Shown here one piece after another: positions 11,141 through 11,235 of a DNA stretch of 64,000 nt. The first letter of the stretch is position 1. Each line of letters begins with the position of its first letter. Under the pieces are notes generated by a model that saw nothing but the letters and a program-made list of their open reading frames with translations, did no database searches and was not told the origin of the DNA. Made by a program: the position numbers and the translations under genes. This DNA is from Eledone cirrhosa. Lineage: Eukaryota. Location: NCBI GenBank assembly GCA_964016885.1, contig OZ024753.1:46748001-46812000 (forward strand), written 5' to 3'.

Positions 11141-11235
11141 TGATCTCAGTAAACAGGTGGGGTAGTTGGCCTTGATAAGCTTCAACCAAAGCGAAACAAG
11201 TCTTGTCGGCTTATATCCCCTGTTTGCTGAGATCA
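11141..11235 (+). ncRNA. Type I hammerhead ribozyme, U3-A8 core variant
   Basis: GCC-UUGAUAA-GCUU[caacca]AAGC-GAAA-CAAG[u]CUUG-UC-GGC, with a distal stem I tgatctcagtaaacagg/cctgtttgctgagatca. Predicted cleavage after C11207. Folded by eye. Confidence 0.75.

What the first reader, a model, noticed from the sequence alone, without database searches (positions are those of the whole stretch)
11141..11235. Complete sense-strand type I hammerhead (U3-A8) in a CELF intron
Seen: all core positions are present (UUGAUAA 11172-11178, GAAA 11193-11196, GUC 11205-11207). Stem II GCUU/AAGC has a 6-nt loop. Stem III CAAG-u-CUUG has a 1-nt loop, which suggests dimer-assisted folding. Stem I extends through an internal loop into a 17-bp distal helix, the geometry used for loop-loop tertiary contacts. 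It begins about 8 nt after a (TA)n tract and is in the CELF pre-mRNA orientation, about 400 nt after an exon, so cleavage could influence co-transcriptional splicing (inference).
Basis: partly seen in the sequence, partly recalled or inferred. Interest (0 to 1): 0.75.

Follow-up and report, generated by a model that had tools for sequence, protein, structure and literature searches.

The report
Retrozyme hammerhead landed in CELF intron
The self-cutting RNA motif is real, but it is one of about 900 near-identical copies carried by a young jumping repeat, likely copied by Penelope-type retrotransposons, and this lone copy in a CELF intron is probably a passenger that would cut only weakly rather than a splicing switch.

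Summary
In detail: all stated coordinates form a type I hammerhead with a U3-A8 core, on the sense strand of a CELF intron. It is not a host element. It is positions 13-107 of a 5'-truncated 245-bp copy (11129-11373) of a 316-bp non-coding repeat. The genome holds 333 exact copies of the 40-nt core and about 900 cores in three young subfamilies, in arrays up to 26 units. Insertions carry the Penelope signature: 91 of 95 3' ends lie at two sites 26-33 nt apart, 32 of 38 inverted insertions have one of each, and 77 of 95 abut TA runs. This is a metazoan non-LTR retrozyme. Stem III stays self-complementary across subfamilies, which points to dimer cleavage. As a monomer the CELF copy is predicted to misfold (+5.4 kcal/mol), and no partner copy lies in 464 kb around it. 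Splicing regulation is unsupported. Cleavage, expression and the partner Penelope family were not shown. This scan already reported similar Penelope-type retrozymes in this and other genomes.

The parts
11129..11373 (+). Single 5'-truncated copy (unit positions 1-245 of 316) of a non-coding hammerhead repeat (retrozyme), ending at the family's long 3' terminus
   Evidence: 99.6% to a full unit of L009
11141..11235 (+). Type I hammerhead with extended stem I
11172..11178 (+). Core U3-U4-G5-A6-U7-A8-A9; U3-G5 also pairs with 11197-11199 in the predicted off fold
11179..11192 (+). Stem II (4 bp) with hexaloop CAACCA, aligned to loop 2 of Rfam HH9
11193..11207 (+). GAAA, self-complementary stem III (CAAG-U-CUUG) and U16.1-C17; cleavage predicted between 11207 and 11208
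   Evidence: cleavage inferred
11215..11215 (+). Near-private substitution (A here; 135 of 136 other copies differ, C in the family) on the 3' side of the stem I internal loop
11050..11128 (.). TG/TA microsatellite, 5' half of the insertion target
   Evidence: target role inferred
11374..11400 (.). TA microsatellite, 3' half of the insertion target
10620..10748 (+). CELF linker exon upstream of the host intron (129 nt; splice sites read from sequence)
12387..12449 (+). CELF exon downstream of the host intron (splice sites read from sequence)

Best explanation
This hammerhead is part of a recently inserted, truncated copy of a 316-bp non-coding repeat with about 900 hammerhead copies in the genome, likely a non-LTR retrozyme copied by a Penelope-type reverse transcriptase, and the lone copy in the CELF intron is predicted to cut only weakly and is probably a neutral passenger. 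Shown: copy number, tandem and inverted layouts, two fixed 3' ends in TA runs, conserved fold, no second copy in 464 kb. Inferred mechanism: tandem arrays are transcribed; two neighbouring hammerheads pair through the palindromic stem III and cut to unit length; units are probably circularised; a Penelope RT/GIY-YIG protein nicks a TA run and starts cDNA inside the RNA at unit position ~219 or ~245-252, then stops at random. The CELF copy is one such cDNA, started at 245 and stopped at position 1. It lacks the unit's upstream 71 nt and a partner, so it would be made only as part of CELF pre-mRNA, where the core is predicted to be sequestered.
For: 43 matches at 98-100% among 40 scored of 1210 candidates; 333 exact 40-mers, control 0; 582 relaxed cores plus 336 of a longer-stem-III variant, control 2; 316-318 bp period, 26 units in L046. 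Of 58 independent insertions, 38 are inverted and 32 of these have one short and one long end; 91 of 95 3' ends at the two sites; 77 of 95 TA-flanked. This tail is described as shared by and unique to Penelope-like elements, from internal initiation at two sites (PMC11167929; PMC8557442). Intact Penelope ORFs with RT and GIY-YIG and the same two-end TA pattern are present. Only 1 of 77 arm 5' ends lies near the cut site (2.7 expected), so templates ran through it (circle or uncut multimer). Compensatory changes between young and old subfamilies in stems I, II and the distal helix (9 of 27 pairs, 91% of cells paired). Stem III centre is U, A or C in young subfamilies and GA in the old one, always between self-complementary arms. 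Monomer hammerhead fold +5.4 kcal/mol; double hammerhead +0.2 per ribozyme.
Against: No partner Penelope family was found: four families with long ORFs (775, 784, 719, ~900 aa) share no terminal DNA with the unit. Equilibrium folding of natural tandem copies did not give the double hammerhead (P ~0). Nearest-neighbour energies leave out Mg2+ and loop 1/loop 2 docking, which this motif seems built for, and coral and mussel retrozyme hammerheads cut as monomers (PMC7229834), so the lone copy may be more active than predicted. Covariation rests on about two lineages (5 young, 11 old rows; 35 of 500 shuffles reach the pair count). No A>G strand bias (28 vs 26 T>C). Expression, circles and cleavage were not observed.
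Confidence: 0.85

Rival explanations
1. The copy came in as a retrozyme but cuts efficiently as a monomer through loop 1/loop 2 docking and measurably changes CELF splicing or transcript level, like the mammalian CPEB3 ribozyme.
For: Sense orientation, intact core, 459 nt after a 5' splice site; HH9-like loops; the near-private 11215 change raises predicted stem I pairing from 0.03 to 0.22; CPEB3 precedent (abstract of PMC10274809).
Against: Very young copy, one difference from the commonest sequence; off fold dominant; no conservation shown, and contigs of organisms B, C and D covered only repeat parts of the stretch; only 1 of 9 Xenopus retrozyme dimers cut in vitro (bioRxiv 10.64898/2026.07.22.740005).
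Confidence: 0.07
2. The unit is the pseudo-LTR of an autonomous Penelope element not yet found, and the CELF copy is an ordinary 5'-truncated Penelope insertion.
For: Penelope ends and inversions; U3-A8 hammerheads occur in Penelope pseudo-LTRs (PMC4209133); retrozymes are reported to derive from pseudo-LTRs.
Against: In the 50 loci mapped the 5' ends stop inside a unit or array, and one search found no shared extension among its 30 loci; pure arrays up to 26 units; the autonomous families with a detected hammerhead carry a different, minimal one.
Confidence: 0.06
3. The motif is a chance match or a dead satellite sequence with no ribozyme function in any copy.
For: Below Rfam gathering; the minimum-energy fold is not a hammerhead.
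Against: Core kept and helices covarying between subfamilies about 70% alike; 130 of 136 copies have an intact core, although loci were chosen by core patterns.
Confidence: 0.02

Closest known systems
Metazoan non-LTR retrozymes (Cervera and de la Pena 2020, PMC7229834; Li, Clavereau and Pollet 2026, bioRxiv 10.64898/2026.07.22.740005)
   Same: Type I hammerhead in each ~300-bp, low-GC (34%), non-coding unit; monomers to long arrays; genome shared with Penelope elements; about 43% of Xenopus copies are intronic.
   Different: RNA and circles not shown here; insertions show the full Penelope tail and inversion signature in TA runs, which the parts of these papers that I read do not report; U3-A8 core; longer palindromic stem III (4-5 bp per arm).
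Penelope-like element pseudo-LTR hammerheads and non-autonomous PLEs (PMC4209133; PMC8557442; PMC11167929)
   Same: Partial tandems, inverted 5' arm, short tail at one end, TA targets, palindromic stem III for dimer cleavage, U3-A8 variant known from Schistosoma PLEs.
   Different: No ORF; canonical rather than minimal hammerhead; parent family not identified.
Conserved intronic ribozymes of amniotes: HH9 (RECK) and HH10 (C10orf118) hammerheads, CPEB3 HDV-like ribozyme (PMC3088659; PMC10274809)
   Same: Sense-strand ribozyme in an intron; best Rfam match is HH9.
   Different: Those are single-copy and conserved across species; this is a young repeat copy, scores 26.8 against a gathering score of 52, and has no shown conservation or activity.

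Membership tests
Type I hammerhead ribozyme | Core Y3-U4-G5-A6-N7-R8-A9 (3-8 paired), G12-A13-A14, A15.1-U16.1, H17 around stems I-III with stem I open | tested here: met
   U3-A8 is a known natural covariation (PMC3088659; PMC4209133)
Type I hammerhead ribozyme | Helices kept by compensatory change | tested here: met
   9 of 27 pairs change on both sides, but across about two lineages only
Type I hammerhead ribozyme | Site-specific self-cleavage | not testable with these tools
   folding only
Metazoan non-LTR retrozyme | 150-450 bp tandem unit, GC under 50%, one type I hammerhead per unit, no ORF or LTR | tested here: met
   316 bp, GC 34%; arrays; 33 of 58 insertions hold two or more hammerheads
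Metazoan non-LTR retrozyme | Expressed as linear and circular unit RNAs | not tested
   no RNA run of this organism among the 23 listed; no RNA data were laid
Penelope-mobilised element | Two fixed 3' ends with a short tail, inverted 5' arm, microsatellite target | tested here: met
Penelope-mobilised element | Terminal sequence shared with an autonomous RT/GIY-YIG family | tested here: inconclusive
   four families checked, none matches; others not checked
Conserved intronic regulatory ribozyme (HH9/HH10/CPEB3 type) | Single-copy host element | tested here: not met
   333 exact core copies
Conserved intronic regulatory ribozyme (HH9/HH10/CPEB3 type) | Kept at the orthologous intron in other species | tested here: inconclusive
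   contigs of organisms B-D did not cover the CELF exon or the junctions
Rfam Hammerhead_HH9 (RF02275) | Score at or above gathering (52 bits) | tested here: not met
   26.8 bits

The most novel reading that the evidence does not exclude
The family keeps a built-in off switch: U3 lets the catalytic core pair with the 5' arm of stem III (92.7% of cells paired over 16 copies, dominant fold in 13 of 16), so a lone or circular copy stays silent until a second hammerhead opens it. The solo copy in CELF could then be cut in trans by free retrozyme RNA, which would tie CELF pre-mRNA fate, and that of other genes with sense-strand solo copies, to the level of transposon RNA.
Probability: 0.05. Interest if true: 0.75.

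Novelty: new member of a known kind. Interest (0 to 1): 0.25.

Why it matters
As it stands, modestly. It adds a young family whose insertions tie a canonical-hammerhead retrozyme to Penelope enzymes through the tail signature, a link the retrozyme papers propose, and it offers three natural stem III variants for testing dimer gating. The CELF location is most likely incidental. It would matter much more if the lone copy cut CELF pre-mRNA, alone or with retrozyme RNA in trans.

Tried and rejected
Partner search: four Penelope-type families reached from ORF fragments beside copies showed no terminal homology to the unit; hits in those loci were separate retrozyme insertions or AT-rich noise. The ORF start downstream of the 26-unit array (L046) did not recur with the unit in that family's other loci. 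Orthologous or empty site: one search gave one contig of organism A over 10560-11040 and no credible joint across the insertion; the listed joints have sides of 21-49 letters in repeats and were not used. Cis partner: 400 kb upstream plus the window hold only a hammerhead-free fragment 214 kb upstream. RNA-editing scars, a lead from note e1-8803865: none in this family. 5' ends at the cleavage site: not enriched. The miRNA-family Rfam hits are hairpin and TA-repeat noise below gathering. Rows dropped: 13 of 74 loci removed before the count (12 overlapping another locus, 1 chance pattern hit) and 3 more had no hit at 85% identity; L047 holds a duplicated insertion counted once; L115 was not folded. 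Expression was left untested.

Full report
Observation. The motif aligns over the whole Rfam HH9 model, with loop 2 CAACCA against CAAAAA and UA in the stem I internal loop, at 26.8 bits, below the gathering score of 52; nothing in the window reaches gathering. The host is a CELF gene on the + strand; an RRM1-like exon lies about 292 kb upstream of the window (weak tblastn hit, E 0.22). The intron runs 10749-12386 by splice sites read from the sequence, and the predicted cut lies 459 nt from its start.

It is a repeat. A search of the own genome gave 43 matches at 98-100% from 40 scored of 1210 candidates. The 40-nt core occurs 333 times exactly (174 forward, 159 reverse, control 0). A relaxed pattern gives 582. 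A variant with a longer stem III gives 336, control 2, and 98 of the 100 listed are one sequence. An older subfamily about 70% alike gave 2758 candidates, 40 scored. The unit is 316 bp, 34% GC, and forms arrays of up to 26. The window holds unit positions 1-245 at 11129-11373 between TA runs. Of 136 other copies, 15 differ from it at one site, and only 1 shares its base at 11215. Contigs of three other coded organisms carry the same family with few differences.

How it moves. In 58 independent insertions (61 examined after removing 13 of 74 loci; 3 without a hit), 91 of 95 3' ends fall at unit position 215-232 (39) or 243-256 (52), 77 of 95 abut TA runs, 38 insertions have an inverted arm, and 32 of those have one short and one long end. 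Craig et al. describe partial tandems, an inverted 5' copy, a 30-40 bp tail at one end and TA targets for Penelope-like elements (PMC8557442, passages). Frangieh et al. show internal initiation of reverse transcription at two adjacent sites and call the tail shared by and unique to these elements (PMC11167929, abstract and first part of the main text). The genome has many intact Penelope ORFs with RT and GIY-YIG whose copies end the same way. I could not name the partner: four families share no terminal DNA with the unit. Arm 5' ends avoid no region and are not enriched at the cut site (1 of 77, 2.7 expected), so the template ran through the site, which fits a circle or an uncut multimer (inference).

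How the ribozyme likely works. Between young and old subfamilies the core is kept and 9 of 27 pairs change on both sides, with 91% of cells paired; this reflects about two lineages. Stem III arms stay self-complementary around U, A, C or GA. Cervera and de la Pena describe such palindromic helices as working in dimers and report U3-A8 in Schistosoma Penelope elements (PMC4209133, parts 1-2 of 4); Perreault et al. also list U3-A8 and palindromic stem III (PMC3088659, passages). For the window copy the monomer hammerhead fold lies 5.4 kcal/mol above a fold in which the core pairs with the 5' arm of stem III, whereas the double hammerhead is within 0.2 per ribozyme of the best dimer; the other six RNAs gave 2.8-6.3 and 0.0-3.1. 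In the whole intron P(stem III) is 0.001. Against this, natural tandem transcripts did not form the double hammerhead at equilibrium, the model omits tertiary contacts, and coral and mussel hammerheads cut as monomers at about 0.8 and 0.1 per minute (PMC7229834, passages and section 14). The off helix is dominant in 13 of 16 copies with one compensatory pair; part of it follows from fixed core letters, so selection on it is only a hypothesis.

The CELF copy. No second hammerhead of this lineage lies in the 400 kb upstream or in the window. Hammerhead-like motifs are common here: 11 in 464 kb, 5 on + and 6 on -, against 0-1 in shuffles. In Xenopus about 43% of retrozyme copies are intronic and 1 of 9 dimers cut in vitro (bioRxiv 10.64898/2026.07.22.740005, parts 1-3 of 5; supplements closed). 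The CPEB3 precedent (PMC10274809, abstract) concerns a conserved single-copy ribozyme. Nothing here shows conservation, expression or an effect on splicing; polymorphism and orthologues could not be read.

Novelty. A new member of a known kind. Searches for retrozyme/hammerhead/octopus, hammerhead ribozyme/cephalopod/intron and three others listed no paper on this family; the cephalopod terms were my guess and the host taxon was not tested. Interest 0.25.

Noticed in passing
window 11399-11566; L088:277-888: Two-armed inverted remnant of a different TA-flanked repeat of about 290 bp; in L088 its tandem units carry a tRNA-like head (ARAGORN calls tRNA-Cys and tRNA-Ser), so it may be a tRNA-derived element moved by Penelope enzymes.
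   Followed up: partly
window 11715-11820 and 11860-12070: Two more TA-flanked repeats in the same intron; the second is an imperfect inverted repeat, with 35 hits in 14 sequences including the window.
   Followed up: partly
window 33262-33336 and 32155 (-): An inverted pair of minimal U3-A8 hammerheads and one minimal C3-G8 hammerhead downstream of the CELF stop codon.
   Followed up: no
window 15460-18291, 13977-15011, 7801-8757: A 944-aa open LINE-like ORF and two RT fragments in CELF introns; the two fragments hit Pfam RVT_1.
   Followed up: no
L083:1117-7643: Young 4.2-kb tandem Penelope family with intact 775-aa RT/GIY-YIG ORF, an upstream ORF, a Cys motif before the nuclease and a minimal hammerhead with palindromic GUAC (read by eye).
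   Followed up: partly
L113-L136 (older subfamily): Stem II opens with a C-A or A-A mismatch and stem III has a two-base GA centre that would give tandem G-A pairs in a dimer.
   Followed up: partly
G000, pattern: Strand skew of 277 forward to 59 reverse suggests one large unlisted array of the longer-stem-III subfamily.
   Followed up: no
window 42000-50000 and 56000-60000: Long stretches with GC of 2-18%, mostly under 10%.
   Followed up: no
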